From the sequence record NZ_CP123987.1: 64,000 nt of DNA; one strand, given 5' to 3'. The translations under genes were made by a program, and so were the position numbers. The notes below the pieces were generated by a model. It had not been told where the DNA came from and searched no databases. It saw only the letters and a list, made by a program, of their open reading frames with translations. Of the stretch, positions 11,369-61,120 are shown in pieces; position 1 is the stretch's first letter; every line of letters begins with the position of its first letter. This DNA comes from a plasmid.

Positions 11369-11780
11369 TAAGTTGATAAATTGCCTTCCATGATAACATT
11401 GCGCATTTAATTCGAGCTGGGAATTGTTTAACCCCTTCTAAAATTATTGCCTCACCTAAAACTTTTCTATCAGGTTTTACTTCTTTTGTAATCATATCGG
11501 AAAATGACAATACCATGTTTTTTATTGTATCGAAGTCTTTATTTAATACTTCATTTGTCATAATACTTGCGGATGATTGAGAAATTGTGCAACCATAGCC
11601 ATCAAAAGCAATATCTTTTATCTTATTATCCTCAATTAATGCAGTTAAGGTAATAACATCCCCACAAGTCGGATTTCTCAATTCAACTTCAACACTTTTA
11701 TTTTCCAACTTACCTTTATGTCGTGGATGGTTAGCTTCTTCTAAAATTGCTTGTCGATATAAATTATTTAAATTACTCAT
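11331..11780 (-). CDS. sufU: Fe-S cluster scaffold SufU (NifU-like)
   Basis: 149 aa; conserved Cys (CGD, GCT, C near C-terminus); between sufS and sufB. Confidence 0.85.
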
Positions 11781-21024: not shown

Positions 21025-21075
21025 CTTATCTTTAATTATTCGGTAATAGTATAAGTAATTAAATTCATAATTAGA

Positions 21076-22242: not shown

Positions 22243-22265
22243 AGTAGTTTTATTAGAATCTAATA

Positions 22266-22895: not shown

Positions 22896-22931
22896 ACGTC
22901 CTCTTCCTTATAATAATTTTTATAACTACAG

Positions 22932-25938: not shown

Positions 25939-28898
25939 TATTTCCCTTTCAAAATATATTTTTCAGACATAATCATTTTTTTTACAATAAAATACAGATT
26001 TTGTTCCCTAACCCTATTAATTCCAAATAACCTATTATTATGTACATGTATAATACTATCCATAATAGTGTCAGCATTTTTTTTATCAATTATTAATTTT
26101 AGTTTTTTAATCTCTTCCTTAAGTCTATTAAAGTTGTATTTGTCAATCTCATATATGTCAGTTAACTGATTAAATACTACACTTTTATAGTATTGTATTT
26201 TAGACCTTACATTTTTATCTACCTTATTGGGACAGACTTTATCTAGAAAACATAAAATGTCTTCATTTGTTTTATAAAATATTTTTAAATAAAAATAAAT
26301 CATTGCAACTGCAATATCATCAAGTTTATCTTCCATGTTCTTTTCTTTTATAAATTTCAAATACTTTATTACAAGTTTAGAATCTTCACAGAAAATATTT
26401 TCAGCTATATCTATTGCATTAACTCCTCCATATCTCTCAATTTCGCGATCATATGTAGAAATATCAAAAGTCGATAAAATACCATTTCTATGACCTTGCT
26501 CCAAATCTTTTTTAATAACTTCATATATTTTATATAAATTATTACCACTTATCCTTATCCTTATTTGTGGTACTGGATCCATATAACGTAAGAAAAATAG
26601 TTTTCCGTCTAATTTTTCTACCTTTTTTTGAATCAGAGGTATGTAAACTCGTATAAACTCTTCTTGTCTCCTAGTCGACATATACACTTTTAGATATAAC
26701 CAATCATTGAATGGCAATTTCTCTCGAACATGTTTGGAGATTCTCTGTTGTTTTTCCTTGTTTACTTTTTTAACATCGAATTTACTATTAATAACTGGAA
26801 CCACTATCTCTGATATTTTTCCTTCACTATCTTTATATATCATGTCTTTATTATTAAAATATTCTTGTATAATGGCATGACCATTCTTTTCTATATTTCT
26901 TTTTATTTCTGACATAAACAGTTCAACATCAAGTGAATTTTTACGATTAATATATAGTTTGTTATCACCGTCAACAATATAAATTTCATTCGGTATATTT
27001 CTCTGCTTTATAATCGACTCTATTGCTATATTACTTAATTCAAATTTAAATATTCTCCATGTCTTAGGACTGACTACTATATCCTCAAACATAATTCGTG
27101 GAATAAAATTCATATCTTTATAGATTAAATCCCATGGTACATATCCAAAATTATTATTTATTGAAATTTCACATAAAAATCTTAGTTCATTACTAAATAA
27201 TGTCTTGTTATACATGCTTGTTACATAAAACTTCATTTTTTCTTGAGTAGACACATCATACGCATAAAAATTTTCATTTTCATCTAATCCAATATAAATA
27301 TTAGTTAGCCTTACTTCAGATTGATCAGTACTTGAGAAAATAGGAAGAACTTTTTCTCTTACAAAAGATGTTCGCATTATATTAGCGTGTCGTATATTTT
27401 CAGGAAGAAAAACTATTTCACAAGACGTCACCCCTTCTTCAATATTTGCAGCTTTCACTTGTTTAAGTGTCTTCATGTGATAATCCCTTAATTTATCTGA
27501 TAATAATGAGAACCTTCCAGAGGATCCCCCTATATTATTACTGCCTATAATATTGCTTAATGCTAAAGTTTTCTTCTTATTAATTTGGACCATATGAAAA
27601 AATAATTCTATTCCTTGTATTGAGGTACTTTCTTTGGAATTCAGATTTCTATAATAATTAGAAAAGCATTTCAAATTAATTTCCTCTCTATTTAATAAAG
27701 CTTCTATATATTTATTAATATACATTTCTTTTTCATCATGGGAATAATATGACGTTGGAGGCTCTAATTCAAAAACTTCATTCTGAGGATGCGTATAATC
27801 ATACGGTGCGCCAATTCCTTTTATTGGATCAAATAGTTCTATTAACTGCACATCTTGATCAATACCATATTTTTCAATGAATTTATCTTTATAGTCATCA
27901 AAATAAGTCCTAGTTACTGATTTAACAGTATTAGTTATAAAATTTGAAAATTTCTCTATTCTTTGTTTATTACTATTATCAATATATATATTCCCATCAT
28001 TATATAAATCTACTTGAATATAATTATCACTTTTATTAAGTCTAGCCATTTGGTGATATATTTCAATTAATTTATCAGAACCCGAACCTATTTCAATATG
28101 TGTATATTCTTCAATTAACTCTTGTATCTTTGTTAATATTTCTACATATTTTTTACTAACATCTATTTCCCTAACTTTCATTATGAAGTCTGACATAGAA
28201 AAATTAATTAGTATATTTTCTTGTAAATTTGATATTAGATAATGATTCTCTACTAAATCATTAATATATTCTTTTGTTAAATTTAAGTATTCATTACCAT
28301 ATATTGTTATAACCTTTTCTATGATTTCACTATATGTCTTATAAGTTTGGCTACACTCTTCTGATATAATTCGATAAACTTTAGAGTTATTAATACTAAC
28401 TTCCTCTAAATCTTGATCATTTATTGAATATAATTGCATAACACGATTTCCACTAATGTAATTTCCATTATTAGATATGAAAGATAAGTTTGATTGATAG
28501 TCCTTTTCTAATTTAAAAATTACATCTGTTAACCATTTAATATCTATAAAAACTACTTTGTGTGTTTTCCCTAATTCTTTCTTATCACCCTTAACGGTAA
28601 ATTTACCATTAGAAGTTTCACTAAATAGTCCAAAAGGAGTTGCTCGATAATAGCTCCTTTTATAATATTTATATATTGATTCAAAAAAATTTTTTTCTTT
28701 CTTTTTCTTTAGTTTTCCTGCATTATACTTTTTAAGCATTCCATACAGCTTAGGATTAGCCAATAATATTTGTTCAAGAAAAATATTATCATTTTTAATA
28801 ATTTCAATAAATTCCTTATAATTATTGAAATTTTGACTTTTTTCATATGTTTGAATTGTATTACGTATCATTACATCACTAACATTGAAATTATTCAT
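25938..28898 (-). CDS. lanB: LanB-type lantibiotic dehydratase (NisB-like)
   Basis: 986 aa; N-terminal 'FLEQILLANPKLY...KYNAGKLKKKKEK..FESIYKYYKRSYYRATPFGLFSETS' closely parallels the NisB N-terminus (R.TPFG motif); size matches NisB at about 993 aa. Confidence 0.9.
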   Translation of the reverse strand: MNNFNVSDVMIRNTIQTYEKSQNFNNYKEFIEIIKNDNIFLEQILLANPKLYGMLKKYNAGKLKKKKEKNFFESIYKYYKRSYYRATPFGLFSETSNGKFTVKGDKKELGKTHKVVFIDIKWLTDVIFKLEKDYQSNLSFISNNGNYISGNRVMQLYSINDQDLEEVSINNSKVYRIISEECSQTYKTYSEIIEKVITIYGNEYLNLTKEYINDLVENHYLISNLQENILINFSMSDFIMKVREIDVSKKYVEILTKIQELIEEYTHIEIGSGSDKLIEIYHQMARLNKSDNYIQVDLYNDGNIYIDNSNKQRIEKFSNFITNTVKSVTRTYFDDYKDKFIEKYGIDQDVQLIELFDPIKGIGAPYDYTHPQNEVFELEPPTSYYSHDEKEMYINKYIEALLNREEINLKCFSNYYRNLNSKESTSIQGIELFFHMVQINKKKTLALSNIIGSNNIGGSSGRFSLLSDKLRDYHMKTLKQVKAANIEEGVTSCEIVFLPENIRHANIMRTSFVREKVLPIFSSTDQSEVRLTNIYIGLDENENFYAYDVSTQEKMKFYVTSMYNKTLFSNELRFLCEISINNNFGYVPWDLIYKDMNFIPRIMFEDIVVSPKTWRIFKFELSNIAIESIIKQRNIPNEIYIVDGDNKLYINRKNSLDVELFMSEIKRNIEKNGHAIIQEYFNNKDMIYKDSEGKISEIVVPVINSKFDVKKVNKEKQQRISKHVREKLPFNDWLYLKVYMSTRRQEEFIRVYIPLIQKKVEKLDGKLFFLRYMDPVPQIRIRISGNNLYKIYEVIKKDLEQGHRNGILSTFDISTYDREIERYGGVNAIDIAENIFCEDSKLVIKYLKFIKEKNMEDKLDDIAVAMIYFYLKIFYKTNEDILCFLDKVCPNKVDKNVRSKIQYYKSVVFNQLTDIYEIDKYNFNRLKEEIKKLKLIIDKKNADTIMDSIIHVHNNRLFGINRVREQNLYFIVKKMIMSEKYILKGK

Positions 28899-28977
28899 TT
28901 TTTCAAGCCCCTTTCACCTATTAAAAAAATGGGATAGCAAATCATCAAATTGATCTACGCTATCCCTTACTTTCTTA

Positions 28978-29157
28978 CTATTTACTTATATGTACATGAC
29001 AACCACATGATGCAGTTTTCATTGTACATCCCATTAGTGCACCTGTTTTGCAACCTGGGGTACAAAGTGAGTAGCTTGTAATTTTAACTGAATAATTTGA
29101 ATTTGTACTTTCCTTTGATACTTTTACTAAATCCAATTTAAAATCATTAACACTCAT
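28978..29157 (-). CDS. lanA: nisin-like lantibiotic precursor, 59 aa: MSVNDFKLDLVKVSKESTNSNYSVK-ITSYSLCTPGCKTGALMGCTMKTASCGCHVHISK
   Basis: Hand-translated; absent from the ORF track. AGGAGG RBS 10 nt upstream. 'F(N/K)LDL' leader box. 34-aa core differs from my recollection of nisin A at 7 positions, with all ring-forming Ser/Thr/Cys conserved. Lies immediately upstream of lanB. Confidence 0.85.
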   Translation of the reverse strand: MSVNDFKLDLVKVSKESTNSNYSVKITSYSLCTPGCKTGALMGCTMKTASCGCHVHISK

Positions 29158-30638: not shown

Positions 30639-31634
30639 ATGGTTTCAATCAAAATGTTTGGTGTTCGTGATGAAGAACGTCCAATGGCTGAAAACTGGGC
30701 AAAGGAACACAACGTTAAAATTGATATGACTAGTGACATCCTTACATCTGATACTATCGATGAAGTTAAGGGTTTTGACGGTCTAACTTTAATGCAAGTA
30801 GCAGAAGTTACAGATGACTTATATCCTAAATTGAAAGAATTTGGTATCAAACAAATCGCACAACGTAGTGCTGGTTATGATATGTACAATTTAGATGCTG
30901 CTAAAGAAAATGGCATTATTATTACTAATGTGCCTAGCTACTCCCCAGAATCAATTGCTGAATATACTGTAACTACAGCATTGAACTTAGTACGTAAATT
31001 CCCACTAATTGAAAAACGTGTTAAGGAACATAATTTCTCATGGGAACCTGAAATCAGAGGTCGTGTTATCGGTGACATGACAGTTGCTGTTATCGGAACT
31101 GGCCGTATTGGTTACCATGTAGCTAAAATCTTCCATGGTTTTGGTGCTAAAGTTGTCGGATATGATCTATATCCTAGTGACAAATTAGACGGTATCTTGG
31201 AATATCGTGATTCTGTAGAAGATGCAATCCGCGATGCAGACATTATTTCTTTACATATGCCTGCTTTCAAGGAAAACCACCACATGTTTAACTACGAAAT
31301 GTTCAAGAAATTCAAATCTGACGCTGTATTAGTTAACATGGCTCGTGGTGCTTTAATTGATACAGAAGATTTATTGAAAGCTTTAGATGATGGCCTTTTG
31401 GCTGGAGCTGGTCTTGACGTTTACGAACACGAAGGTCCATTAGTTCCTATTGACCTAACTGGAAAAGATATTGAAGACGAAACATTCAAGAAAGTACTTG
31501 AATCTGATAAGATTATCTACTCACCACACGTAGCATACTACACTGATGAAGCTGTTAGAAACTTAGTTGAAGGTGGCTTAAATGCTACTTTGGAAGTATT
31601 GGAAACTGGCGATGCTTCAACACGTGTAAACTAA
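30639..31634 (+). CDS. ldhD: D-lactate dehydrogenase / D-isomer-specific 2-hydroxyacid dehydrogenase
   Basis: 331 aa; NAD fold 'VAVIGTGRIGYHVAKIF'; catalytic 'MARGALID' and 'SPHVAY'; GAGGAGG RBS. Confidence 0.85.
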   Translation: MVSIKMFGVRDEERPMAENWAKEHNVKIDMTSDILTSDTIDEVKGFDGLTLMQVAEVTDDLYPKLKEFGIKQIAQRSAGYDMYNLDAAKENGIIITNVPSYSPESIAEYTVTTALNLVRKFPLIEKRVKEHNFSWEPEIRGRVIGDMTVAVIGTGRIGYHVAKIFHGFGAKVVGYDLYPSDKLDGILEYRDSVEDAIRDADIISLHMPAFKENHHMFNYEMFKKFKSDAVLVNMARGALIDTEDLLKALDDGLLAGAGLDVYEHEGPLVPIDLTGKDIEDETFKKVLESDKIIYSPHVAYYTDEAVRNLVEGGLNATLEVLETGDASTRVN

Positions 31635-31696
31635 TTAGTTTAATCCTAATAAAAGCCTCTGAGAATCCATCTCAGAGGTTTTTTGTTATATACTTA

Positions 31697-32377
31697 CTAT
31701 AAGTTATTTATATTTTTATCACCGTATAGACTTTCCCAGTCATTTCTAAAATCTGCCACAGCTTGAGAAATAGACGGCATCTTAAAAGCAGATGCTACAA
31801 TATCAGGACCAACTGTTACAGCTTGAGCACCATTACTTAATGCTTCATTTACTTGTGCTACATTATGGAAACTTGCAGCTAAAATTTTAGTATTGCTATT
31901 ATCTAAATTAATTCTTTTAGATAGATTTCTAATAACTTCAGCTGAATTAATATTTTGATTTAACATTCTATTATAGTAAGGAGCCAAGTAGTCAGCACCA
32001 ACGTTGATTGCTTGATAACCTTGAAATTCCGTATAAATTGCAGTTGCTGTTACCCTAATTCCTTCAGCCTTTAGTTTTTTCATGACTTCTAACCCATCTA
32101 AAGTAGTTGGAACTTTGATGTATACATCCTTACCTACTTCATCTACAATTTTATGAGCTTCATCTATCATTCCAGATACTGAAGGTGCCACAACTTGTAC
32201 GTGGAGTTCTCTTTCATCTTCAATGATTTCCTTTATTTTTTTAAGATGTGCGAATAAATCATCGCCTACTCCATCTTTTTTTAGAATCGTTGGATTAGAA
32301 GTTACTCCTTTAACATTTAATTTATCACAGTAATATTTAATCTTTTTCAAATCAACTGTATCTAATAAAAATTCCAT
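31697..32377 (-). CDS. fructose-6-phosphate aldolase / transaldolase-like (MipB/TalC family)
   Basis: 226 aa; 'DTVDLKKI...GVTSNPTI' N-terminus typical of FSA/TalC. Confidence 0.75.
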   Translation of the reverse strand: MEFLLDTVDLKKIKYYCDKLNVKGVTSNPTILKKDGVGDDLFAHLKKIKEIIEDERELHVQVVAPSVSGMIDEAHKIVDEVGKDVYIKVPTTLDGLEVMKKLKAEGIRVTATAIYTEFQGYQAINVGADYLAPYYNRMLNQNINSAEVIRNLSKRINLDNSNTKILAASFHNVAQVNEALSNGAQAVTVGPDIVASAFKMPSISQAVADFRNDWESLYGDKNINNL

Positions 32378-32443
32378 ATCTATTTTGTCCTTTCATGCTA
32401 GAAAAGCATAGAGAAACCTCAACGCTCCCTATGCTTCCCTAAT

Positions 32444-32824
32444 TTATTTTATAATAGCAATCTTTGTACCTTCATTAATTTTAGGGTATTCCTTTTCTTC
32501 TACGTACATTGATCCTGGTAATGTAGCAGTTTTATCCCCTGTGAAGTTAATGGCTATATGACCTAAGTTCTTCAAGTTAGTTTGAACTTCGTTACCTACT
32601 GCTGTTATTTTATATTTTTCATCGTCAATTTGTAAAGTCATACCTGCCTTTATTTCACCAGATAATTCGTTTACTTTAATGATGTAGCAGGATGGTCTAA
32701 GTGCATCTGGAGCCCCTTCACCAAATAAGATAACCATCTTAATTTCCTTGAAATTCTTAGCTTCTTCACCAATTTCTATAACTTCTGTTTCATAAAGCTT
32801 AGTCTTTTTCTTTTGTAAGAACAT
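32444..32824 (-). CDS. srlB: PTS glucitol/sorbitol-specific EIIA
   Basis: 126 aa; operon position after EIIC and EIIBC. Confidence 0.75.
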   Translation of the reverse strand: MFLQKKKTKLYETEVIEIGEEAKNFKEIKMVILFGEGAPDALRPSCYIIKVNELSGEIKAGMTLQIDDEKYKITAVGNEVQTNLKNLGHIAINFTGDKTATLPGSMYVEEKEYPKINEGTKIAIIK

Positions 32825-51964: not shown

Positions 51965-52822
51965 TCAGTCAGATTCGCATCCAGAATCCTTAACCCATCT
52001 TTCAAAGATAGCGTCACGTCTTGCTTCTTTATCCTTCAACATTCCATGTGTTTGTAACCAAACGTTTTTCGCAAAATTCAGTACTGCTTGCTCATATGTA
52101 TTACCACCACAATCCAAAGCAATATCATGATAGTAAGTTGTTGCGTATGGGACATCAGTATCATCTAAAACATGATATCCACCCTCAGCCCACCATTCTA
52201 CTTTTCCACTTGTTTCACTAGAAGTTGGATAAATATCCATAAAGTTTAAATTCATGTGTGATGTCTCCCAGAAGACTCTATTCCCATGAACATTTTCTTT
52301 CCAGAAATTAGGATGTGTCCTAAGCCATTCATAAATTAATAGAAAATTTTCATGCGTAAAACTGTCTTCTTTGACTTTCTTATCCAAATTTTTCCATTCT
52401 TGGTACTCATCTTCTAGGTTCTTAACACTATAGTCACCATGGTGTCTGAAAATTAGGTGATTCTTTGTCCAAAAGAAATCATCGCTCAAATTTCCAAATT
52501 CTCCTTTTTCATTAAGATCTTCATCTTCAGGTTCACCAAATACTTCATGTGCTATTTCATCTGAAAACCAAACTTCTCCGTCATTATCAGCTTGAGAGTA
52601 GGCTTCCAAGAAAGAATCATATACATAATCTACTTTTCCTAAATTTTCCTTATATTCCAATGAATATCCTAATTCCTCACTAAAGTAGATCCCCCATTTA
52701 TCATGTTTATTCTTTAGGATGATACGTTCTTTTTCAAATAGTTTTAGGTAATTAGGTGATTCTTTTACAAAATTAGGTATATCATAATTCAAAAATTTTT
52801 CTTCCATGTCATTCATCCTCAC
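51965..52822 (-). CDS. hypothetical cytoplasmic protein (285 aa; acidic, Trp/Tyr-rich)
   Basis: ORF track; no family recognised. Confidence 0.35.
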   Translation of the reverse strand: MRMNDMEEKFLNYDIPNFVKESPNYLKLFEKERIILKNKHDKWGIYFSEELGYSLEYKENLGKVDYVYDSFLEAYSQADNDGEVWFSDEIAHEVFGEPEDEDLNEKGEFGNLSDDFFWTKNHLIFRHHGDYSVKNLEDEYQEWKNLDKKVKEDSFTHENFLLIYEWLRTHPNFWKENVHGNRVFWETSHMNLNFMDIYPTSSETSGKVEWWAEGGYHVLDDTDVPYATTYYHDIALDCGGNTYEQAVLNFAKNVWLQTHGMLKDKEARRDAIFERWVKDSGCESD

Positions 52823-53152
52823 TTGTTAATCTACAATAATCCTACCCTAATCTTTACGAAATAAAAATCTACCAGTGGTTTAATGGTAAAGAATATTCAA
52901 AAAATTTTTATTAATTATTATTTTTTAGAACGTTTTACTTTTGCAGCAACTAAGATAAGAAATAGTGGAATAATACCGGCAACTCACCCATATTTAAAAA
53001 TATCAATTATTCAATAGTAATAATACAATAAAAACTAGTATTGACTTTTTCATATGTACTCCTTAACTTCAAAATAAAAAATTAAGAAAAATCATTAAGT
53101 AAAAATATACTTTTTTAATTTGATTTTTCCTAACTTTCTTACTCTATTGATT

Positions 53153-53350
53153 TTAACGCTTTCTTTCATAACGTTTTGTTGTCACCAATGATTGATAGAC
53201 ATATCTTATACCTAGGTAAGTAAATAATATATCAATAATTGCAAATAAAAAATATCCTTTATCAAGAAAAATACTTCCTACTGCTATTGATAACATTACT
53301 AAACCGATATAAAAAGTATAATTTTTATAAAAATTTTTATTTATTTTCAT
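53153..53350 (-). CDS. small membrane protein (65 aa)
   Basis: Two TM segments; may be immunity-like. Confidence 0.2.
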   Translation of the reverse strand: MKINKNFYKNYTFYIGLVMLSIAVGSIFLDKGYFLFAIIDILFTYLGIRYVYQSLVTTKRYERKR

Positions 53351-53893
53351 ATATTACTCTCCATTTCTACTAATAACTTCAGCTAGATTTTTCCATTATA
53401 TAATTTCATTTCCTAGTTTTAATTTATCATATTCTCAAATCATCGTGCCTAAATTATCGAATTAGGTCTTTTTTAATACATATCTGGCTTAACCAAATAC
53501 GCTTTAAAAAGTTCATATTAGGCTTGAAAAATCATCCTATCTTTCATTTGAAATACAATAACTATAGGTAATTATCTTAAATAAGGATGTGAAAAAAGTG
53601 AATAAAAGAATAGACTACTTTATTGGTATAGCCAATATATGTACAGGAATCCTAATGTTGTTTAATAGTAATAACTTATATCCCTTAATTTTTTGTATGA
53701 TGGGATTAATTTCTATAATTGCAACTACATTGAAGAAGTGAATACTAACTTTTATCTAATTTTGTTTAACATATTTAGCGACCCATTACTTTATATTGTA
53801 AATATATTAATAATAGTCAATAAACATTTGCAAAGATAATCATGAGATGTCATATAAAGAGGGTTGGAATACCCTAAGTTCCAACCCTCTTTA

Positions 53894-54139
53894 TTAATTA
53901 TATTTTCTATTTTGTCTAATTTCTTTAATCAACATAACTATAAAAATCATTAATGTTCCCAATAAGATTAAACCTCTCATTGTTAACATAGGAGTTCGCA
54001 TAAGCCCATTTAAATTCAGTAATATTAACAATAGAAACCCTGCATACTTACTATTTCTCGTAAAATTCACTTTCAACCTTGAAATTACCATAAACCCTAC
54101 AATTAGCAATATAATAATACTTGTTTCTACCATGATCAT
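53894..54139 (-). CDS. small membrane protein (81 aa)
   Basis: Hydrophobic; lies directly downstream of the LytTR regulator. Confidence 0.25.
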   Translation of the reverse strand: MIMVETSIIILLIVGFMVISRLKVNFTRNSKYAGFLLLILLNLNGLMRTPMLTMRGLILLGTLMIFIVMLIKEIRQNRKYN

Positions 54140-54168
54140 TCACCACCTACACTAATAAACACAAAAAA

Positions 54169-54963
54169 TTAAACTGTTTTCAAATTATACCTTTCAATCA
54201 AACTTTTCATTTTAGCCTTACTTCTCCTAGGAAAAGTCTCCTTATATCCATCTTTAAAAGAAATACTCCTTGTTGACAGGTTAATTTCAACAATATTACT
54301 TGGATTAGCTAAACAAGATTGTGATATTTTTTCTAGAAAATCATTTTCTACCTCTAACTTCTTAATATCGCCTGTAAACTCACCCATACCATTAACTGTA
54401 ACTATTTTCAATCTATGTGACTTAGGAGTGGTAATAATATATAGAATATCATTGATATTTTCGTTAATAATTCTTCTGCCCATTTTATAGCTAAATGTCA
54501 TTTTCTTTATGGCATGAGATTCCCTAATTCTCCTTGCAGCTAATGATAAAGTCTCATTTAGTCGTTTTTGAATCACTTCATCATTATCATTTTTAGTAAT
54601 AAAATCCAATGCTCCAGTACGACGTCGATAAGTCATTGCTGCTAGATTTTCATAAGCTGTAATAAAAATTATCTGTGCATTTGGATCTTTTTGTCTAATA
54701 AATTCAGCTAAATCTATCCCATCTCTATCTGCTTTATCTTTACTAAGTTCAATATCTAAAAAATAAACTCCACTATCTACTTTGTTATCTTCCAAATAAT
54801 CGGCTACTTCAATATAACTATTAGCTTCCAAAGTTATTTTAAATTTTTTACCTTTACTGTCAGCAGAATCTTCTAAAGACCAAATAGCATATTTAACTAG
54901 ATCATGTATCCTTCTAACTTGATCCTTCTCATCGTCACAAATAATAATTCCATATTCTTCCAA
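54169..54963 (-). CDS. LytTR-family response regulator (AgrA/PlnC/AbpR-like)
   Basis: 264 aa; receiver domain plus C-terminal LytTR DNA-binding domain; immediately downstream of the HPK10-type kinase. Confidence 0.85.
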   Translation of the reverse strand: MEEYGIIICDDEKDQVRRIHDLVKYAIWSLEDSADSKGKKFKITLEANSYIEVADYLEDNKVDSGVYFLDIELSKDKADRDGIDLAEFIRQKDPNAQIIFITAYENLAAMTYRRRTGALDFITKNDNDEVIQKRLNETLSLAARRIRESHAIKKMTFSYKMGRRIINENINDILYIITTPKSHRLKIVTVNGMGEFTGDIKKLEVENDFLEKISQSCLANPSNIVEINLSTRSISFKDGYKETFPRRSKAKMKSLIERYNLKTV

Positions 54964-54976
54964 ATTAAACTACCCC

Positions 54977-56175
54977 TTAAATGCTCATAACCATAAGGAA
55001 AGTAAACCAACCATCTTTAATTTGATAATTAATAAAAATATCATTATAAGATTGACTTAATTCTTCTATATTAGCTAATCCTAATCCGTCATGATTCTTC
55101 TTAGTTGTAAAACCTGATTTTTTTATATCTTGAATTGTTAGATCGGTATCTCGATAACGATTTCTAATCTCAATTTCAAGTTCACCATTTTCTTGATAAA
55201 TCATAGTATCTATCTTAGCTTCATCACCAAACTCAAGACTTTCTTCAATTGCATTATCGTACACAATTCCTAATATTCTAACAATGTCAAACGAGTTATA
55301 CTTATTCGACAAGTTTTCTATCACAATTCGACATTCAAAAGAATATTGAATATTGTTTTGAAAGATTCTATTCAACTTACTGATAAATAGACTCTTTAAT
55401 AATTCATCTTTAACATTGTCAACATCATTAAACTGCCATAATACTTTATCTTCTAAAGTCTTACTTGAATATTCAGCTAGTTTATCTATTAACTCTTTAT
55501 CATGACTTTTTTTACACTGAGTTTCAAGCTTAATAGCATATTTTGATAATCGTGCTTAAATTTACGTAAACCTCGCTGGCTACTTTCTAACTGTTGTGTA
55601 TAAATTTTTAGATCATTAATTTGTTGTAAACTTAATTTATCCTGCCGTATTTTCTTATTAATGGAATATACAAATAATGAAAAGAACAATTGGCTAACAA
55701 CAACTACCGTAGCTATAATATACGATACTGCATCTATATTAAATACATATGTTGTTAGATAGTAAATAACCATTGAACTAATCCATATGTATAAAATTAA
55801 ATAAAAATACAATAATCCATACTCATCATCTAGTTTCTCTATTATAGTCGTCTTTGTTAAAATTATATATTCAAAAATGTTTAATGACACATCTAATATT
55901 ATCACACTGACCATTGTGTAATAATTTGTAAATAATGTAAAAAATAATGCTGAAGCACCGAATGTTATATAGGAAAATAAATCTAGCATTAACAACCTTC
56001 CACATAATCTGTAATCCAAAGTTAGTTGTCTGTATACAATATAAAAAATAAAAATTTCAATAAATGGTGCAAAAAAACCAATAATATCTCCAACACCATT
56101 AATTAAAAGAATTACAGGAAAAGTAAGAAGTATAAATAATAAATTATACTTCTTACTTTTCCTAGTAGGGGTCAA
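54977..56175 (-). pseudogene. AgrC/HPK10-type bacteriocin quorum-sensing histidine kinase, frameshifted in an A7 homopolymer (forward T7 at 55507-55513)
   Basis: The N-terminal ORF has polytopic membrane helices and the H-box 'FKHDYQNMLLSL'. The C-terminal ORF has the ATPase domain. Adding one A restores a continuous frame: '...LSVKKSHDKELIDKLAEYSSKTLEDKVLWQFNDVDNVKDELLKSLFISKLNRIFQNN...'. Confidence 0.8.
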
Positions 56176-56263
56176 AAGATAAAAAAACTATATCTACAAA
56201 AAGTATTTATAAATAAAATTAGTGTAGCTACTATATAACCAGATGTTGAATTTAAATTAACCA

Positions 56264-56380
56264 TTATTTACAAACACCAAAAAATGTGAATATACATTGC
56301 CATCTTTTAAAGCCACCCTTTTTGGTTGCTCCCCCAGCTATTTTCTGTAACTTCTTTTCTGTTAACACTTCAAACTTCAT
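56264..56380 (-). CDS. GG-leader induction-peptide precursor (38 aa): MKFEVLTEKKLQKIAGG-ATKKGGFKRWQCIFTFFGVCK
   Basis: Hand-translated; absent from the ORF track. GGAGAG RBS 8 nt upstream. Double-glycine leader followed by a cationic two-Cys mature peptide. Lies directly upstream of the kinase. Confidence 0.65.
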   Translation of the reverse strand: MKFEVLTEKKLQKIAGGATKKGGFKRWQCIFTFFGVCK

Positions 56381-56499
56381 AAAAAATCTCTCCTTTGTTA
56401 TCTTTATTACAAATATAGTTTAACATTTTTTAATCTACTTTATTCGTTTTTTATCATATTCGGTTCATTTTAATGCTTATTTGGATGAAATTCTTAAAA

Positions 56500-56688
56500 C
56501 TATAGCCACCACATAAAATTTAACACCCACGCTCTCACATAACTTATTTTCTTATTCTTTTCTATGACTTTCTCATCAAATAACTTATGATGCCCCTCTT
56601 CTTTTAGACTAGTATAAATACTGATAAAAATACTATATGCAACTATTACAGTAATCCCAAATATCATATACTCACTTCCTAATCCCAA
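56500..56688 (-). CDS. small membrane protein (62 aa), possible immunity or accessory protein
   Basis: N-terminal TM segment; located between the beta peptide and the induction peptide. Confidence 0.3.
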   Translation of the reverse strand: MGLGSEYMIFGITVIVAYSIFISIYTSLKEEGHHKLFDEKVIEKNKKISYVRAWVLNFMWWL

Positions 56689-56811
56689 AATATATTATGT
56701 TCTATTAAAAATAAAAGTAGTGTCAAATTTAGCTATATACTATAACTTACACTTGACACTACTTGAAGAAAAATAGATTTATTTCTTATTTTCTAATTCA
56801 TTAGACTTATT

Positions 56812-57018
56812 CTAACGGCAACTTGTAAAGCCACCAGAAATTCCACCCGCTACGGCTGACCAGGGTCCACCGATAGCTCCAATTAAAGCTCCACCTACGA
56901 TGCCAGCTCCACAGTGAACCCAGCGATTTCCACTACCACCATAACCATTTTTACCACCATTTACTGATGCTAAGTTATCTTCAGTCATAATTGTGAATCT
57001 TTTATCTAGATTTTTCAT
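56812..57018 (-). CDS. class IIb bacteriocin beta prepeptide (ABP-118beta / LafX-like): leader MKNLDKRFTIMTEDNLASVNGG, mature KNGYGGSGNRWVHCGAGIVGGALIGAIGGPWSAVAGGISGGFTSCR
   Basis: GG leader; GxxxG-rich two-Cys mature peptide; 'NRW' and 'GPW' motifs shared with lactacin F LafX. Confidence 0.9.
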   Translation of the reverse strand: MKNLDKRFTIMTEDNLASVNGGKNGYGGSGNRWVHCGAGIVGGALIGAIGGPWSAVAGGISGGFTSCR

Positions 57019-57035
57019 TTTAAATTACTCCTATA

Positions 57036-57239
57036 TTATAAACAAGTAAGTGCTCCGCCTACCATTCCTAAGTTTGCTCCACCTACAATACCAGCTGGTC
57101 CAAGTGGAACTCCTGCAGCTGCTCCAGCAAATAGACCACCTAAAAAGTTACCTACACAGTTAGGACCACGTTTCCCACCATCAACCTTTGCTAACTCACA
57201 TTCTGTCAATACTGTAAATTCCTTCATCATGATAATCAT
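57036..57239 (-). CDS. class IIb bacteriocin alpha prepeptide (ABP-118alpha-like): leader MKEFTVLTECELAKVDGG, mature KRGPNCVGNFLGGLFAGAAAGVPLGPAGIVGGANLGMVGGALTCL
   Basis: GG leader; GxxxG-rich two-Cys mature peptide. True start is probably the MKEF Met at about 57227. Confidence 0.9.
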   Translation of the reverse strand: MIIMMKEFTVLTECELAKVDGGKRGPNCVGNFLGGLFAGAAAGVPLGPAGIVGGANLGMVGGALTCL

Positions 57240-57505
57240 CCTTTCATATGTTTATTTACTTTCATCGCAGTATCTAATAAGTAAAGTAGTGTACTACCAC
57301 CTACTAGACAAAAAATAGTGACTATTATCATTTTAGGCGTTTGAATATAATCTAAATAAGACATTTCCTCATTACCAAACAGCCATATTCCTAGTGGAAT
57401 CAATAGTGCCCAAATAACTGGAGCAATAACATATCTCTTCTTTCCTCTAATGAATCCACCATCCAACCAAGTCTCCCATAGTTTTTTTAGCATGTAAGAA
57501 CACAC
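57236..57505 (-). CDS. small polytopic membrane protein (89 aa), putative bacteriocin immunity protein
   Basis: Three TM segments; overlaps the alpha-peptide start (ATGA). Confidence 0.55.
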   Translation of the reverse strand: MCSYMLKKLWETWLDGGFIRGKKRYVIAPVIWALLIPLGIWLFGNEEMSYLDYIQTPKMIIVTIFCLVGGSTLLYLLDTAMKVNKHMKG

Positions 57506-57622
57506 CCTTTCTAAAACACTTGTGAAACATATACTTACACTTTTATTGTATTATCATTCCGTATTCAAATATCGATTTAGCGTAAAATACGTTATTCTAT
57601 ACCTAGTTGGTTACATTTCTTT

Positions 57623-57796
57623 TTAACTACAAATATTTTGATTTGAGTGTCTTAATCTTTTAAAAAATTTAGTATTAGCAATTGTACAGCCTATATCGTA
57701 ACCAAACTGTCCGCTATCTATATAATCATAAGAATTTCTTCCACCAATTATATGTGCCAATTCTTTCTTATCAACTTGTACAAAATTATTATTCAT
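57623..57796 (-). CDS. second GG-leader bacteriocin-like prepeptide (57 aa): MNNNFVQVDKKELAHIIGG-RNSYDYIDSGQFGYDIGCTIANTKFFKRLRHSNQNICS
   Basis: Hand-translated; absent from the ORF track. GAGGTG RBS 7 nt upstream. Double-glycine leader; cationic two-Cys mature peptide. Confidence 0.55.
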   Translation of the reverse strand: MNNNFVQVDKKELAHIIGGRNSYDYIDSGQFGYDIGCTIANTKFFKRLRHSNQNICS

Positions 57797-58028
57797 AACT
57801 TCAACACCTCATAATTTTAAAAATTTATTATAGCTATAATTTACACTTATAATTATTCACTTCATCTGCTCTTTTTGACTATTTCTTCTAATTTTGCTAA
57901 ATTTTATTCTTATTCTCTTTTTTCAACCAGATAGGCACCGCTTACTACCAAATTGGAAAAATCCCCTCAATTCATCACTTTCTATGTGATAATAAAAATA
58001 CTTTTATAATGAATTGAGGTAAAAAATT

Positions 58029-58292
58029 ATGAATAGTTTTTCTAATAATATTAATTTCAGCAAAATTTCTGTTTCACTAATTACTTTATTCCTGTTGATC
58101 TGGACATTAGTTGATGGAAATCTAATTCATCTTGGTATATTGGCTTTTTCTTCTTTGGTTACAACCATGCTACATTTTCACTATTTTGAATCTACTGATG
58201 ACAAACATCCATTAAATAGAATTGATTTTGGATTACAATTACTATTTATCTTTATTTCTATTATTAAGTTTTTCTTGATTTCAGGAAGATAA
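58029..58292 (+). CDS. small membrane protein (87 aa), immunity-like
   Basis: Three hydrophobic segments; adjacent to the extra prepeptide. Confidence 0.3.
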   Translation: MNSFSNNINFSKISVSLITLFLLIWTLVDGNLIHLGILAFSSLVTTMLHFHYFESTDDKHPLNRIDFGLQLLFIFISIIKFFLISGR

Positions 58293-58330
58293 CAATAAGC
58301 CTATCAGGTATCAAATTACACCTGATAGGC

Positions 58331-58669
58331 TTATTTATTAACAATTTTGTACTTCTTTTTAAATTTTCTTTCTGGTATAATTTTACGATTAGTGAAATCC
58401 AAGTAATCGCCTATATACCCACTTGCATAAGTTGCCCACCAACCTGAAGGCTCATTAAATAAAGTCTTAAAATTCGTCCAAGCACTAATTTTAACAGGTG
58501 CCTTAACTCCATTCATAATAAATAACAATTTATCACCTGATCACTTTAGATAGTTAGCTTTAAATGCTTCTTTTATCCATTCAGGTTGTTCTGCTGTTTT
58601 ACTTATCTGCCATATTTGTACTTCTTTACCTTTATAGATTGCTTTCATAGAAATCACCTTCTACATATA
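58331..58669 (-). pseudogene. paralogue of the 60767..61120 protein with TGA where Trp is expected
   Basis: Upstream of the 65-aa ORF, the same frame reads 'MKAIYKGKEVQIWQISKTAEQPEWIKEAFKANYLK*SGDKLLFIMNG...', colinear with 'MKAIYRGRKVDVWQVSRDNVQPDWVKDAFEHNGLRWLHGSGNKVRIYW...'. Confidence 0.5.
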
Positions 58670-58869
58670 ATTAAAGAGCTCTATTAATTACATTTTCATT
58701 ATACTATTTTCATAATACATCCAATGCTAAATTTCTTAACTAGCACTATTTCTTACTTATTTGGTAAATAGTCCAAATAAGTAGTTATTGCTACCATTCC
58801 AGCAGTTTATCACACTATGTAGACATTATTTGCAATAATTACATATATACGATTAGGGGGATTGAAAAA

Positions 58870-59841
58870 ATGAGATACATTAAATTTACTTTACTAATAT
58901 ATTCTTTTTTACTAACTTGGGGAATCACCACGAATAGTATATCAGCGGATGAAGTTACACCTACTACAACATCTGAAACAACAGTTACGCCTCAAAGTCA
59001 AAGTACACCTGTTGATTCTAATGATGAGGATGCTGCAATTGAAGAAAAATTTTACTCTCATGATGTTACAATCGATAAATATAATCAAAATGTGGCAAAC
59101 TTCAATAAAGTTAATACTGATACTGTTAAAACCATGGTTACTGAAAATAGCAACAATCTAGACCAAGTTCTTTACATTGGACGTCCTACTTGTTATTTTT
59201 GTCGGCAAGCTTCTCCACATCTACGTGATTTTAACCAACTAATAAATAATCAGCTTTACTACTATGATATTGATGCTGAACCTAATGCTCATGATTTTGC
59301 ATTTAAAGAAATTGGAATTTCTGGAACCCCAACAACTATGCGTTTAAAGAATGGTAAAGTTGTCAGTGCTTGGATTGGTGGCGAAAAAACAGGACAAGAA
59401 TTTTATGACTTTTTATTTTCTGCAGATGCTAACAAGTTAGCAGATTCCTATATCATAAAGAAAACTGTAAGCACGGATACTTCAAATCCTGTTATTACAA
59501 ATAATCAAAATGTTGAACCAACTGTTAAGCCTATATCAACAAATATAAATCAGCTTAAAGAGGAAAAAACTACTCCTGAATTGGTTAATACTACTTCACA
59601 ATCATCTAAACCTGTTAAAAAAATTCATAATCAAACTACTAATAAGAAAAACAAAAATTCTGTTCTACCACAATTAGGGGTTGTCCCTCTTTATCATCAT
59701 CCATTATTTAAACTTCCTATTCCTCGAATTATCCCTAAGCAATTAGAACGTACTATAATGTTAATTACTTTTCTAGTTCTGTATTTGGGGTTCTTAATAT
59801 ATTTATGGTTGAGCTGGAAAGACATAAATAAAAGGAAGTAG
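58870..59841 (+). CDS. secreted or membrane-anchored thioredoxin-like protein with a CxxC motif
   Basis: Signal peptide; 'GRPTCYFCRQ' CxxC in a thioredoxin-fold-like segment. Ser/Thr/Asn/Pro-rich linker, then 'LPQLG' (degenerate LPQTG-like), a C-terminal TM and 'KRK'. Confidence 0.55.
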   Translation: MRYIKFTLLIYSFLLTWGITTNSISADEVTPTTTSETTVTPQSQSTPVDSNDEDAAIEEKFYSHDVTIDKYNQNVANFNKVNTDTVKTMVTENSNNLDQVLYIGRPTCYFCRQASPHLRDFNQLINNQLYYYDIDAEPNAHDFAFKEIGISGTPTTMRLKNGKVVSAWIGGEKTGQEFYDFLFSADANKLADSYIIKKTVSTDTSNPVITNNQNVEPTVKPISTNINQLKEEKTTPELVNTTSQSSKPVKKIHNQTTNKKNKNSVLPQLGVVPLYHHPLFKLPIPRIIPKQLERTIMLITFLVLYLGFLIYLWLSWKDINKRK

Positions 59842-60766: not shown

Positions 60767-61120
60767 TCAATCTTCAGACACTATCCGATATTTCTTGGCG
60801 AACTTTTCGGCTGTAACGACCTTAGAATTGGTAAAATCGATAACATCTCCCTCAAAGCCAATGTCATACATCGACACGCTGCCACCAGCTATACCAACAA
60901 AAGAAGCTGAAATATCATTCAAAATAGTTCGTACTATTCCCTTTTTTGCCCTAGTAACTGCTGGCCAATAAATTCTGACTTTATTACCACTGCCATGTAG
61001 CCATCGCAACCCATTATGCTCAAAAGCATCTTTAACCCAATCAGGTTGGACATTATCTCTACTCACTTGCCAAACATCTACTTTTCTACCTCTATAGATT
61101 GCTTTCATTTGCTTTATCAC
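60767..61120 (-). CDS. hypothetical protein (117 aa); intact paralogue of 58331..58669
   Basis: ORF track; paralogy recognised by eye. Confidence 0.45.
   Translation of the reverse strand: MIKQMKAIYRGRKVDVWQVSRDNVQPDWVKDAFEHNGLRWLHGSGNKVRIYWPAVTRAKKGIVRTILNDISASFVGIAGGSVSMYDIGFEGDVIDFTNSKVVTAEKFAKKYRIVSED

What the first reader, a model, noticed from the sequence alone, without database searches (positions are those of the whole stretch)
54169..57505. ABP-118 / lactacin-F-family two-peptide (class IIb) bacteriocin locus with a three-component quorum-sensing module
Two GG-leader prepeptides have GxxxG-rich two-Cys mature forms: alpha, KRGPNCVGNF...GALTCL, and beta, KNGYGGSGNRWVHC...FTSCR. The beta peptide shares NRW and GPW motifs with LafX. 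They are flanked by an 89-aa membrane immunity-like gene, a 62-aa TM protein, an induction peptide, an HPK10-type kinase and a LytTR regulator. To my recollection the mature sequences match ABP-118/salivaricin P of L. salivarius, which would place this window in that species group. That identification is from memory only.
Basis: partly seen in the sequence, partly recalled or inferred. Interest (0 to 1): 0.6.

Follow-up and report, generated by a model that had tools for sequence, protein, structure and literature searches.

The report
Decayed ABP-118 bacteriocin locus, L. salivarius
This is the well-known ABP-118 two-peptide bacteriocin locus of a Ligilactobacillus salivarius megaplasmid, but in a broken form already described in the literature: the sensor kinase is frameshifted and the export genes are deleted, so the strain very probably makes no bacteriocin.

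Summary
Window 54169-57505 (minus strand) is the abp118 locus of a Ligilactobacillus salivarius repA-type megaplasmid. It is 99.9% identical to pLS2102-15_1 and about 96-97% identical to pMP118 of UCC118. The Abp118 alpha, Abp118 beta and AbpIP prepeptides are 100% identical to those of UCC118. The beta peptide is the ABP-118 form, not the salivaricin P form.

The locus is not intact. abpK carries two 1-nt homopolymer deletions (T8 to T7 at 56188, A8 to A7 at 55514) and reads as three ORF pieces instead of a 429-aa kinase. The same lesions occur in at least six other assemblies, so they are not sequencing errors. The transporter genes abpT and abpD are absent. Their 3.4 kb is replaced by 0.93 kb, and no C39-type transporter lies in the 64-kb window or on the closest complete megaplasmid.

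This same configuration, with a nisin S cluster nearby, was published for strain P1CEA3, which does not produce Abp118 and is sensitive to it. Transporter loss and abpK frameshifts are both documented as causes of non-production in this species.

Verdict: already known, ordinary, low interest. In passing, the window's nisin S cluster is also damaged (nisC Q65*, 202-bp nisR/nisK deletion).

The parts
57623..57796 (-).
   Evidence: ORF. One residue different from UCC118 LSL_RS10570. Identical to the 'salivaricin B' precursor printed for strain P1CEA3 (PMC11594732). Weak ComC and bacteriocin-signal hits.
57927..57956 (.). 9-12-9 repeat (CCAATTTGG-12-CCTATCTGG on the minus strand; CCAGATAGG-12-CCAAATTGG on the plus strand). 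Candidate AbpR (LytTR) box between salB and the divergent 87-aa gene
   Evidence: Pattern and PWM scans. 5 pattern hits in the window against 0.46 expected from shuffles. Function is inferred by analogy with LytTR regulators.
57236..57505 (-). abpIM, the putative Abp118 immunity protein (89 aa from GTG; 85 aa from ATG at 57493)
   Evidence: PF19401 DUF5976 at 121 bits. One residue different from UCC118 over the longer GTG-start reading frame.
57036..57239 (-). abp118 alpha prepeptide (the start used by RefSeq gives 64 aa, 57036-57230)
   Evidence: 100% identical to UCC118. PF10439 at 57.8 bits. 7 GxxxG motifs and 2 Cys.
56812..57018 (-). abp118 beta prepeptide (68 aa)
   Evidence: 100% identical to UCC118. 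Differs from the JCM1046 (salivaricin P-type) beta at 2 C-terminal residues. PF10439 at 51.8 bits.
56715..56765 (-). Hairpin downstream of beta, probably the terminator of the structural operon
   Evidence: RNA fold of -22.9 kcal/mol, z = -5.8.
56500..56688 (-). 62-aa small membrane ORF of unknown role, conserved in UCC118 (7 differences)
   Evidence: No Pfam or NCBIfam hit.
56455..56484 (-). 9-12-9 direct repeat CCAAATAAG-12-CCGAATATG upstream of abpIP. Candidate AbpR box of the regulatory operon
   Evidence: The same architecture lies upstream of abpT in UCC118 and JCM1046.
56264..56380 (-). abpIP induction-peptide precursor (38 aa, GG leader)
   Evidence: 100% identical to UCC118. PF19154 DUF5836 at 103.7 bits. 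RefSeq names the identical protein WP_003703471.1 'induction peptide AbpIP family protein'.
54977..56264 (-). abpK pseudogene (AgrC/HPK10-like histidine kinase), broken by -1 frameshifts at window 56188 (T8 to T7) and 55514 (CA8 to TA7)
   Evidence: UCC118 and LPM01 have an open 429-430 codon frame. The window has open stretches of only 232 and 192 codons. The C-terminal piece hits HATPase_c_5 and AgrC.
54169..54963 (-). abpR, the LytTR-family response regulator (264 aa), intact
   Evidence: PF00072 plus PF04397. AgrA-like. 8 aa differences from UCC118.
53894..54139 (-). 81-aa small membrane ORF downstream of abpR, followed by a strong terminator hairpin at 53854-53894
   Evidence: -23.4 kcal/mol.
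53153..53350 (-). 65-aa small membrane ORF. In JCM1046 it sits between abpR and abpT
53458..53487 (-). 9-12-9 direct repeat CCAGATATG-12-CCTAATTCG upstream of the 65-aa ORF. Candidate AbpR box
52923..53059 (.). Junction segment where abpT-abpD would lie. UCC118/CECT 5713 homology ends at 52922, right at the abpD stop codon. JCM1046 homology resumes at 53060
   Evidence: The 3.4 kb holding abpD and abpT in UCC118 (L001 4574-8000) and CECT 5713 (L007 7523-10947) is replaced by window 52923-53855.
58029..58292 (+). 87-aa membrane ORF divergent from salB, conserved in UCC118. Role unknown
58870..59841 (+). PedC/BrcD-like thioredoxin-family protein (323 aa). Possible disulfide-forming accessory for the two-Cys peptides
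   Evidence: TIGR01295 PedC_BrcD at E = 1.4e-15, below the curated cut-off. PF20207 PedC-like and Thioredoxin_2 on the identical gene in related contigs.

Best explanation
The region is the abp118 (ABP-118, class IIb two-peptide bacteriocin) locus of a Ligilactobacillus salivarius repA-type megaplasmid, preserved in a decayed, non-producing state.

In the intact system (UCC118), the secreted AbpIP peptide is sensed by the membrane kinase AbpK. AbpK phosphorylates the LytTR regulator AbpR. AbpR then activates promoters carrying 9-12-9 direct repeats in front of abpIP-K-R, the structural operon and abpT-D. The C39-peptidase ABC transporter AbpT, with its accessory AbpD, cuts the GG leaders and exports alpha, beta and AbpIP. 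AbpIM protects the producer.

Here the structural genes, abpIM, abpIP and abpR are intact, and the candidate AbpR boxes are still present. Two steps are broken:
- Sensing is lost, because abpK has two frameshifts.
- Leader cleavage and export are lost, because abpT and abpD are deleted together with their promoter.

The predicted phenotype is no auto-induction, no mature extracellular Abp118 or AbpIP, and probably little abpIM expression.

Shown here: sequence identity, the two frameshifts and their inheritance across assemblies, and the absence of abpT/abpD from the window and from the nearest complete megaplasmid.

Inferred: the phenotype, taken from published work on strains with the same lesions, and the role of the 9-12-9 repeats, taken by analogy with LytTR regulators.
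For: - Identity: megablast gives 99.9% to pLS2102-15_1 and 94-98% to other L. salivarius megaplasmids, and all 26 matching records are L. salivarius. Alpha, beta and AbpIP are 100% identical to UCC118. Synteny with pMP118 holds on both sides of the locus.
- Kinase: two 1-nt deletions relative to UCC118. UCC118 and LPM01 have a 429-430 codon open frame; the window has 232 and 192.
- The lesions are real: the same two are present in 2102-15, CECT 5713 and four further NCBI assemblies. The abpK region is 100% identical over 1331 bp to three of them.
- Continuing decay in the lineage: an extra 2-nt deletion (CECT 5713) or 4-nt deletion (2102-15, L009) at 56216-56219, and an abpR frameshift in 2102-15.
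- Transporter: UCC118 L001 4574-8000 is replaced by 933 bp. tblastn with AbpT and AbpD finds only generic ABC ATPase domains in the window, at 27-33% identity over residues about 466-716, with no C39 or membrane domain and no AbpD hit. The same holds for the whole 140.8-kb pLS2102-15_1.
- Frequency: only 10 of the 26 megaplasmid records holding this locus carry a full-length abpT.
- Literature: P1CEA3 has identical Abp118 alpha/beta, an abpK* split into three ORFs by frameshifts, and no abpT/abpD. Abp118 was not detected there and the strain is highly sensitive to cell-free-synthesised Abp118 (PMC10095417). The P1CEA3 precursor sequences equal the window's ORFs (PMC11594732).
- Literature: an abpK frameshift in CECT 5713 is given as the reason for its lack of bacteriocin production (Langa 2012 as cited in PMC11241558).
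- Literature: chicken isolates lacking lanT/hlyD (= abpT/abpD) are inactive, and the loss is polyphyletic (PMC11617682).
Against: - No expression or activity data exist for the strain that this window comes from.
- Only 64 kb of it was available, so a C39 transporter or a cross-talking HPK10 kinase elsewhere in the genome cannot be excluded.
- The structural, immunity and IP genes show no disabling mutation. Only synonymous or stop-codon changes distinguish alpha and beta from UCC118. This could mean recent inactivation or retained selection.
- In PMC11617682 transporter-less strains stayed resistant to salivaricin P, so the immunity part of such loci may still work in some backgrounds. P1CEA3 behaves the opposite way.
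Confidence: 0.9

Rival explanations
1. The locus is still a working producer. Sensing and export are supplied in trans, by another HPK10 kinase and another GG-leader (C39) ABC transporter elsewhere in the genome.
For: All small genes (alpha, beta, abpIM, abpIP) and abpR are intact, and the candidate AbpR boxes are retained. Only 64 kb of the genome could be inspected. The related plasmid pLS2102-15_1 carries a second GHKL/LytTR pair at 31039-32730, itself fragmented.
Against: No C39 transporter or AbpD homologue lies in the window or on the complete nearest megaplasmid. P1CEA3, with the same configuration, secretes no detectable Abp118 (PMC10095417). CECT 5713 has intact abpT/abpD and the same abpK frameshifts and is reported as a non-producer. 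Chicken strains without lanT/hlyD are inactive.
Confidence: 0.04
2. The abpK frameshifts are homopolymer sequencing or assembly errors and the kinase is really intact.
For: Both lesions are single-base contractions of homopolymer runs (T8 to T7, A8 to A7). This is the classic error type of some sequencing platforms.
Against: The identical pair of lesions is present in at least six other independent assemblies, including the complete genomes of CECT 5713 and 2102-15. The second lesion is linked to an adjacent C-to-T substitution. A truncated abpK has been reported independently for P1CEA3 and CECT 5713. Even with an intact kinase, abpT/abpD would still be missing.
Confidence: 0.02
3. The remnant is kept by selection as an immunity-only ('cheater') locus. 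Basal or AbpR-independent expression of abpIM protects the strain from Abp118 or salivaricin P made by neighbouring L. salivarius, without the cost of production.
For: abpIM is intact, with 1 residue change. Transporter-less 'Type B' chicken strains remained resistant to salivaricin P, and the authors propose this scenario (PMC11617682). Loss of abpT/abpD is frequent, in 16 of 26 megaplasmid records, and polyphyletic.
Against: P1CEA3, whose Abp118, salivaricin B and nisin S precursors are identical to the window's, is highly sensitive to Abp118. This suggests abpIM is not expressed once the kinase is dead. The lineage keeps accumulating lesions, including an abpR frameshift in 2102-15, which looks like neutral decay. 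No strong 9-12-9 box or other evidence of an independent promoter lies directly upstream of abpIM.
Confidence: 0.12

Closest known systems
abp118 locus of L. salivarius UCC118 megaplasmid pMP118 (NC_007930; abpIM-abp118alpha-abp118beta-…-abpIP-abpK-abpR-abpT-abpD)
   Same: Same species group, same megaplasmid neighbourhood (FBPase and integrase on one side; thioredoxin, aminotransferase and serine dehydratase on the other), and same gene order. Alpha, beta and AbpIP are identical in amino acids. DNA identity is about 97% over abpR to abpIM.
   Different: abpK is frameshifted twice. abpT and abpD, with their promoter, are replaced by 0.93 kb carrying a 65-aa ORF. UCC118 has an extra stretch of about 0.56 kb with a truncated abpIM-like duplicate between salB and abpIM that is absent here.
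abp118 remnant of L. salivarius P1CEA3 (Sevillano et al. 2023, PMC10095417) and of strain 2102-15 (pLS2102-15_1, NZ_CP090412)
   Same: Same decayed architecture: identical Abp118 alpha/beta, salivaricin B-like and nisin S precursors, abpK* in three pieces, no abpT/abpD, and a nisin S cluster about 25 kb away. DNA is 99.9% identical to 2102-15.
   Different: 2102-15 has a further 4-nt deletion in abpK and a frameshift in abpR. The window's nisin S cluster carries a nisC nonsense codon and a 202-bp nisR/nisK deletion that 2102-15 lacks. These are not expected in P1CEA3, which produces nisin S.
L. salivarius CECT 5713 (pHN3) abp118 locus
   Same: Same two abpK homopolymer frameshifts. About 99.8% identical over abpR to abpIM. 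Reported as a non-producer because of the abpK frameshift.
   Different: CECT 5713 still has abpT (719 aa, Peptidase_C39 + ABC_membrane + ABC_tran) and abpD. It also has an extra 2-nt deletion at 56218-56219.
Salivaricin P locus (for example the JCM1046 pMP1046A type)
   Same: Identical alpha peptide and the same locus architecture.
   Different: The beta peptide differs at two C-terminal residues (FASCH against FTSCR). The induction peptide and abpK are of a different pherotype: abpK is about 78% identical in DNA and the IP mature region is unrelated.
Lactacin F (LafA/LafX) and other PF10439 class IIb bacteriocins
   Same: GG leader, Gly-rich GxxxG mature peptides, two adjacent genes plus an immunity gene. 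NRW and GPW motifs are shared with a LafX-type peptide.
   Different: No statistically significant pairwise similarity. Different species and a different regulatory module.

Membership tests
ABP-118 (Abp118 alpha + beta) of L. salivarius | Alpha prepeptide sequence equal to that of UCC118 | tested here: met
   100% identical over 67 aa. RefSeq gives the same accession, WP_003703435.1, in UCC118 and in the 99.9%-identical plasmid.
ABP-118 (Abp118 alpha + beta) of L. salivarius | Beta prepeptide sequence equal to that of UCC118, which distinguishes it from salivaricin P | tested here: met
   100% identical. The JCM1046-type beta differs at 2 residues.
ABP-118 (Abp118 alpha + beta) of L. salivarius | Location and synteny: repA-type megaplasmid, abpIM-alpha-beta-…-IP-K-R | tested here: met
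Complete abp118 production locus | Dedicated C39-peptidase ABC transporter abpT and accessory abpD downstream of abpR | tested here: not met
   Absent from the window and from the nearest complete megaplasmid.
Complete abp118 production locus | Intact 429-aa AbpK | tested here: not met
   Two frameshifts, giving three ORF pieces.
Class IIb two-peptide bacteriocin (Pfam PF10439 Bacteriocin_IIc) | Two adjacent genes for GG-leader prepeptides that score above the family threshold | tested here: met
   57.8 and 51.8 bits against a gathering cut-off of 27.1. The two genes are 17 nt apart.
Class IIb two-peptide bacteriocin (Pfam PF10439 Bacteriocin_IIc) | GxxxG helix-helix motifs in both mature peptides | tested here: met
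   7 in alpha and 5 in beta.
Class IIb two-peptide bacteriocin (Pfam PF10439 Bacteriocin_IIc) | Antimicrobial activity requires both peptides together | not testable with these tools
   Reported for the identical peptides made by cell-free synthesis (PMC10095417).
Class IIb two-peptide bacteriocin (Pfam PF10439 Bacteriocin_IIc) | Cognate immunity gene in the same operon | tested here: inconclusive
   An abpIM homologue (DUF5976) is present and intact. Its immunity function and expression were not tested here, and P1CEA3 is sensitive to Abp118.
Lactacin F (LafA/LafX) relatives | Significant sequence similarity to LafA/LafX-type mature peptides | tested here: not met
   BLASTP found no alignment for beta against a LafX-type peptide, and E = 0.14 for alpha against a LafA-type peptide. 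Only the NRW and GPW motifs are shared.
Three-component peptide-pheromone regulatory module (IP + HPK10/AgrC-like kinase + LytTR regulator) | GG-leader induction peptide gene immediately upstream of the kinase | tested here: met
   abpIP is identical to UCC118 and hits DUF5836. Its stop codon overlaps the abpK start codon by 1 nt.
Three-component peptide-pheromone regulatory module (IP + HPK10/AgrC-like kinase + LytTR regulator) | Functional membrane histidine kinase with an HATPase_c_5 domain | tested here: not met
   The domain is recognisable (PF14501; AgrC C-terminus), but it is separated from the membrane and H-box part by a frameshift.
Three-component peptide-pheromone regulatory module (IP + HPK10/AgrC-like kinase + LytTR regulator) | Response regulator with receiver and LytTR domains | tested here: met
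   PF00072 plus PF04397. AgrA-like at E = 3.8e-26, below the equivalog cut-off.
Three-component peptide-pheromone regulatory module (IP + HPK10/AgrC-like kinase + LytTR regulator) | Paired 9-bp direct repeats with a 12-bp spacer in regulated promoters | tested here: inconclusive
   Found upstream of abpIP, of the 65-aa ORF and in the salB intergenic region, and upstream of abpT in UCC118 and JCM1046. No strong site lies directly upstream of abpIM. Binding was not tested, and the PWM is circular.

The most novel reading that the evidence does not exclude
The most novel reading still open is that the clade-wide retention of perfectly conserved alpha, beta, abpIM, abpIP and abpR, without kinase or transporter, is not neutral decay but a selected state. 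One form of this is an immunity or eavesdropping module driven by cross-talk from another kinase. Another is a phase-variable switch in which the T8 and A8 tracts of abpK slip on and off. The perfect 20-bp hairpin inside the 5' end of abpK (56116-56163) could then act as an intra-operon attenuator that uncouples abpIP from abpK/abpR expression.
Probability: 0.05. Interest if true: 0.4.

Novelty: already known. Interest (0 to 1): 0.12.

Why it matters
The practical value is for annotation and probiotic screening. Genome miners such as BAGEL or antiSMASH, or a reader working from the peptide genes alone, would score this strain as an ABP-118 producer. The kinase frameshifts and the missing transporter mean it very probably is not one. 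This repeats what has been published for P1CEA3, CECT 5713 and poultry 'Type B' strains. It adds no new biology beyond one more example of recurrent, stepwise decay of the bacteriocin locus on L. salivarius megaplasmids. In this strain the neighbouring nisin S cluster appears damaged as well.

Tried and rejected
- Another GG-leader transporter: tblastn with UCC118 AbpT and AbpD found only generic ABC ATPase domains in the window (nisin nisT and nisF, and sufC) and on pLS2102-15_1.
- Genome-contig scan with AbpT: returned only a MAG contig (88%) and an unrelated archaeal ABC protein, and nothing from the L. salivarius representative. This is uninformative about a chromosomal backup transporter.
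- Sequencing error as the cause of the frameshifts: rejected because the lesions are shared by at least six other assemblies.
- Remnants of abpT/abpD at the junction (52923-53059): none found. UCC118 homology ends at the abpD stop codon.
- Direct-repeat search with the repeat finder on 56200-58100: gave mostly AT-rich chance pairs and coding-sequence Gly-codon repeats. The LytTR-type boxes emerged only from a comparison of upstream regions. A first regular expression missed the abpIP box because its right half has A at position 7.
- sigma-70 promoter scan: not enriched over shuffles (24 found against 26.6 expected), so no promoter claims rest on it.
- Lactacin F homology by pairwise BLASTP: not significant.
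- Conservation of the abpK 5' hairpin: identical in UCC118 but absent from the divergent JCM1046 abpK, so there is no covariation support.
- The expensive protein-database, structure-prediction and fold searches were not used, because exact identity to a characterised locus made them unnecessary.

Full report
**1. What is in the sequence**

On the minus strand of window 53.1-58.0 kb, the ORF listing and the raw sequence show the following genes, in order of transcription:

- a 57-aa GG-leader peptide (57623-57796)
- an 89-aa membrane protein (57236-57505)
- two GG-leader prepeptides (57036-57239 and 56812-57018)
- a hairpin
- a 62-aa membrane ORF (56500-56688)
- a 38-aa GG-leader peptide (56264-56380)
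- three ORF pieces of 30, 228 and 132 aa (56172-56264, 55489-56175, 54977-55375)
- a 264-aa regulator (54169-54963)
- an 81-aa membrane ORF (53894-54139) with a strong terminator
- further on, a 65-aa membrane ORF (53153-53350)

Pfam gives Bacteriocin_IIc for both structural peptides, at 57.8 and 51.8 bits against a cut-off of 27.1. It gives DUF5976 for the 89-aa protein and DUF5836 for the 38-aa peptide. RefSeq names the identical protein 'induction peptide AbpIP family'. The last kinase piece hits HATPase_c_5, and the regulator hits Response_reg plus LytTR. NCBIfam shows AgrC-like and AgrA-like similarity for the kinase piece and the regulator.

The mature peptides have two Cys each, with 7 GxxxG motifs in alpha and 5 in beta. 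The one exception is that the kinase is not one gene but three fragments.

**2. Identity**

Megablast of 53000-59000 against PLSDB hits 26 records, all Ligilactobacillus salivarius megaplasmids. The best is pLS2102-15_1 at 99.9%. UCC118 pMP118 and CECT 5713 match at 96-98% over the part they share.

The alpha, beta and AbpIP prepeptides are 100% identical in amino acids to UCC118. abpIM differs at 1 residue and abpR at 8. Synteny with pMP118 extends on both sides, with FBPase and integrase on one side and thioredoxin, aminotransferase, nitrilase-type hydrolase and serine dehydratase on the other.

The JCM1046-type (salivaricin P-like) beta peptide ends in ...FASCH. The window's ends in ...FTSCR, as in UCC118. 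This is therefore ABP-118 proper.

Pairwise BLASTP to LafX-type and LafA-type peptides is not significant. 'Lactacin F family' holds only at the level of the Pfam family and short motifs.

**3. The kinase is a pseudogene**

Alignment to UCC118 shows only six differences across abpIP-abpK, and two of them are 1-nt deletions:

- TTTTTTTT to TTTTTTT at window 56188 (codon about 28)
- GCAAAAAAAAG to GTAAAAAAAG at 55514, just after the H-box region

UCC118 and LPM01 have an open frame of 429-430 codons. The window has 232 and 192. The two shifts do not cancel.

The 132-aa C-terminal fragment is called as a protein on 11 contigs of public assemblies. The two lesions are shared by 2102-15, CECT 5713 and four draft genomes. 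Three of the drafts are 100% identical to the window over the 1331-bp abpK region. Sequencing error is therefore excluded.

Within this lineage further lesions have accumulated. There is a 2-nt deletion (CECT 5713) or 4-nt deletion (2102-15, L009) at 56216-56219, and an abpR frameshift in 2102-15. That is the pattern expected of a gene that is no longer under selection.

**4. The transporter genes are gone**

In UCC118 and CECT 5713, abpR and the small ORF after it are followed by abpT and abpD. abpT is 719 aa with Peptidase_C39, ABC_membrane and ABC_tran domains.

In the window the homology to UCC118 stops at 53856 and resumes at 52922, exactly at the abpD stop codon. The 3.4 kb in between is replaced by 933 bp. 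Part of that replacement (53060-53487) matches the segment that lies upstream of abpT in JCM1046. This segment holds the 65-aa ORF and its promoter.

tblastn with AbpT and AbpD finds only generic ATPase-domain similarity in the window, at 24169-24936, 20410-20964 and 14310-14990. It finds nothing for the C39 or membrane domains or for AbpD. The same is true of the complete 140.8-kb pLS2102-15_1. Only 10 of the 26 megaplasmid records that hold the locus have a full-length abpT. LPM01 lacks abpT/abpD but has an intact abpK, so the two lesions arise independently.

**5. Regulatory anatomy**

Comparison of upstream regions revealed 9-12-9 direct repeats of the form CCnrATwwG at three places in the window:

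- upstream of abpIP (56455-56484)
- upstream of the 65-aa ORF (53458-53487)
- in the intergenic region between the salivaricin B-like gene and a divergent 87-aa ORF (57927-57956)

The same repeats lie upstream of abpT in UCC118 and JCM1046. A loose pattern gave 5 hits in 64 kb against 0.46 expected.

This is the architecture bound by LytTR regulators such as AgrA and PlnC/D (established knowledge), so these are probably the AbpR boxes. That is an inference. The PWM scan is circular because it was trained on these sites. No strong box lies directly upstream of abpIM. The structural operon may therefore be read from the box upstream of the salivaricin B-like gene.

Strong hairpins follow beta (-22.9 kcal/mol) and the 81-aa ORF (-23.4 kcal/mol).

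**6. How it works, or fails to**

In the intact system AbpIP is sensed by AbpK, which activates AbpR, which drives the promoters. AbpT and AbpD then cleave the GG leaders and export alpha, beta and AbpIP, while AbpIM protects the producer. This model is stated in PMC10095417 with reference to the original UCC118 work.

Here the sensing step and the processing and export step are both destroyed. The best-supported prediction is a silent locus that produces no bacteriocin.

Published strains carrying the same lesions behave this way:

- P1CEA3 has identical precursor sequences, an abpK* in three ORFs and no abpT/abpD. It secretes no detectable Abp118 and is highly sensitive to cell-free-made Abp118, which implies that abpIM is not expressed.
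- CECT 5713 is reported as a non-producer because of its abpK frameshift.
- Poultry isolates that lack lanT/hlyD are inactive, and that loss is polyphyletic.

The main rival still worth testing is an 'immunity-only' remnant kept by selection. The poultry study supports it, because those strains stayed resistant. The P1CEA3 result argues against it.

**7. Comparison with what is known, and novelty**

The locus is a member of the ABP-118 family by exact peptide identity and by synteny. It fails the tests for a complete production locus and for a complete three-component module. Both failures, and their combination next to a nisin S cluster, are already described. Novelty is 'already known' and interest is low.

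**8. Seen in passing**

The window also contains the nisin S cluster (18973-29157, minus strand; order nssA-B-T-C-R-K-F-E-G). The precursor is identical to the published nisin S.

Relative to pLS2102-15_1, this copy has two lesions:

- a nonsense codon in nisC (Q65*, window 23960)
- a 202-bp deletion between 26-bp direct repeats (22272-22297), which removes the last 20 residues of NisR and about the first 50 of NisK

Both bacteriocin systems of this strain therefore look inactivated.

A perfect 20-bp-stem hairpin lies inside the 5' coding part of abpK (56116-56163; -29.3 kcal/mol, z = -9.35). It is identical in UCC118 but absent from the JCM1046 pherotype, and it remains unexplained.

Noticed in passing
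window 18973-29157 (- strand): Complete-looking nisin S lantibiotic cluster (nssA 28978-29157, nisB 25938-28898, nisT 24118-25938, nisC, nisR, nisK, nisFEG 18973-21024). It has no nisI or nisP. The precursor is identical to the published nisin S of L. salivarius P1CEA3.
   Followed up: yes
window 23960 and 22272-22297: Relative to pLS2102-15_1, the nisin S cluster here carries a nonsense codon in nisC (Q65*; ORFs 23958-24152 and 22932-23849). It also carries a 202-bp deletion between 26-bp direct repeats that truncates NisR (209 aa instead of 229) and removes the N-terminus of NisK. This strain's second bacteriocin system is therefore probably dead too.
   Followed up: partly
window 56116-56163 (- strand): Perfect 20-bp-stem RNA hairpin (-29.3 kcal/mol, z = -9.35) inside the 5' coding region of abpK, about 100 nt after abpIP. 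It is identical in UCC118 but absent from the divergent JCM1046 abpK. It could be an intra-operon attenuator, but this is unexplained.
   Followed up: partly
window 58870-59841 (+ strand): 323-aa thioredoxin-family protein with a PedC/BrcD-like domain next to the locus, conserved in all related megaplasmids. It is a plausible disulfide-forming accessory for the two-Cys bacteriocin peptides. It is retained although the transporter is gone.
   Followed up: partly
window 58331-58657 (- strand) versus 60767-61120 (- strand): Two short ORFs (38 and 65 aa) together resemble the N- and C-termini of the 117-aa protein encoded at 60767-61120. They look like a frameshifted paralogue of it.
   Followed up: no
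window 51965-52822 (- strand): A 285-aa hypothetical protein is intact here and in CECT 5713 and 2102-15. In UCC118 it is annotated as two separate genes (L001 3616-4140 and 4213-4458), so UCC118 appears to carry the broken copy.
   Followed up: no
L001 (UCC118) 11760-12320 versus window 57506-57622: UCC118 has an extra stretch of about 0.56 kb between the salivaricin B-like gene and abpIM. It contains a truncated abpIM-like duplicate (62-aa ORF at L001 12049-12237). The window, 2102-15 and JCM1046 lack it.
   Followed up: partly
window 54226-54751: Nucleotide differences from UCC118 are clustered in abpR: about 27 substitutions and 8 amino-acid changes. abpIP-abpK has only 4 substitutions in 1.4 kb. 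This suggests a recombination mosaic within the locus.
   Followed up: no
NZ_CP090412.1 31039-32730 (outside the window): The closest complete megaplasmid carries a second GHKL kinase and LytTR regulator pair. It is also fragmented into separate receiver and LytTR ORFs.
   Followed up: no
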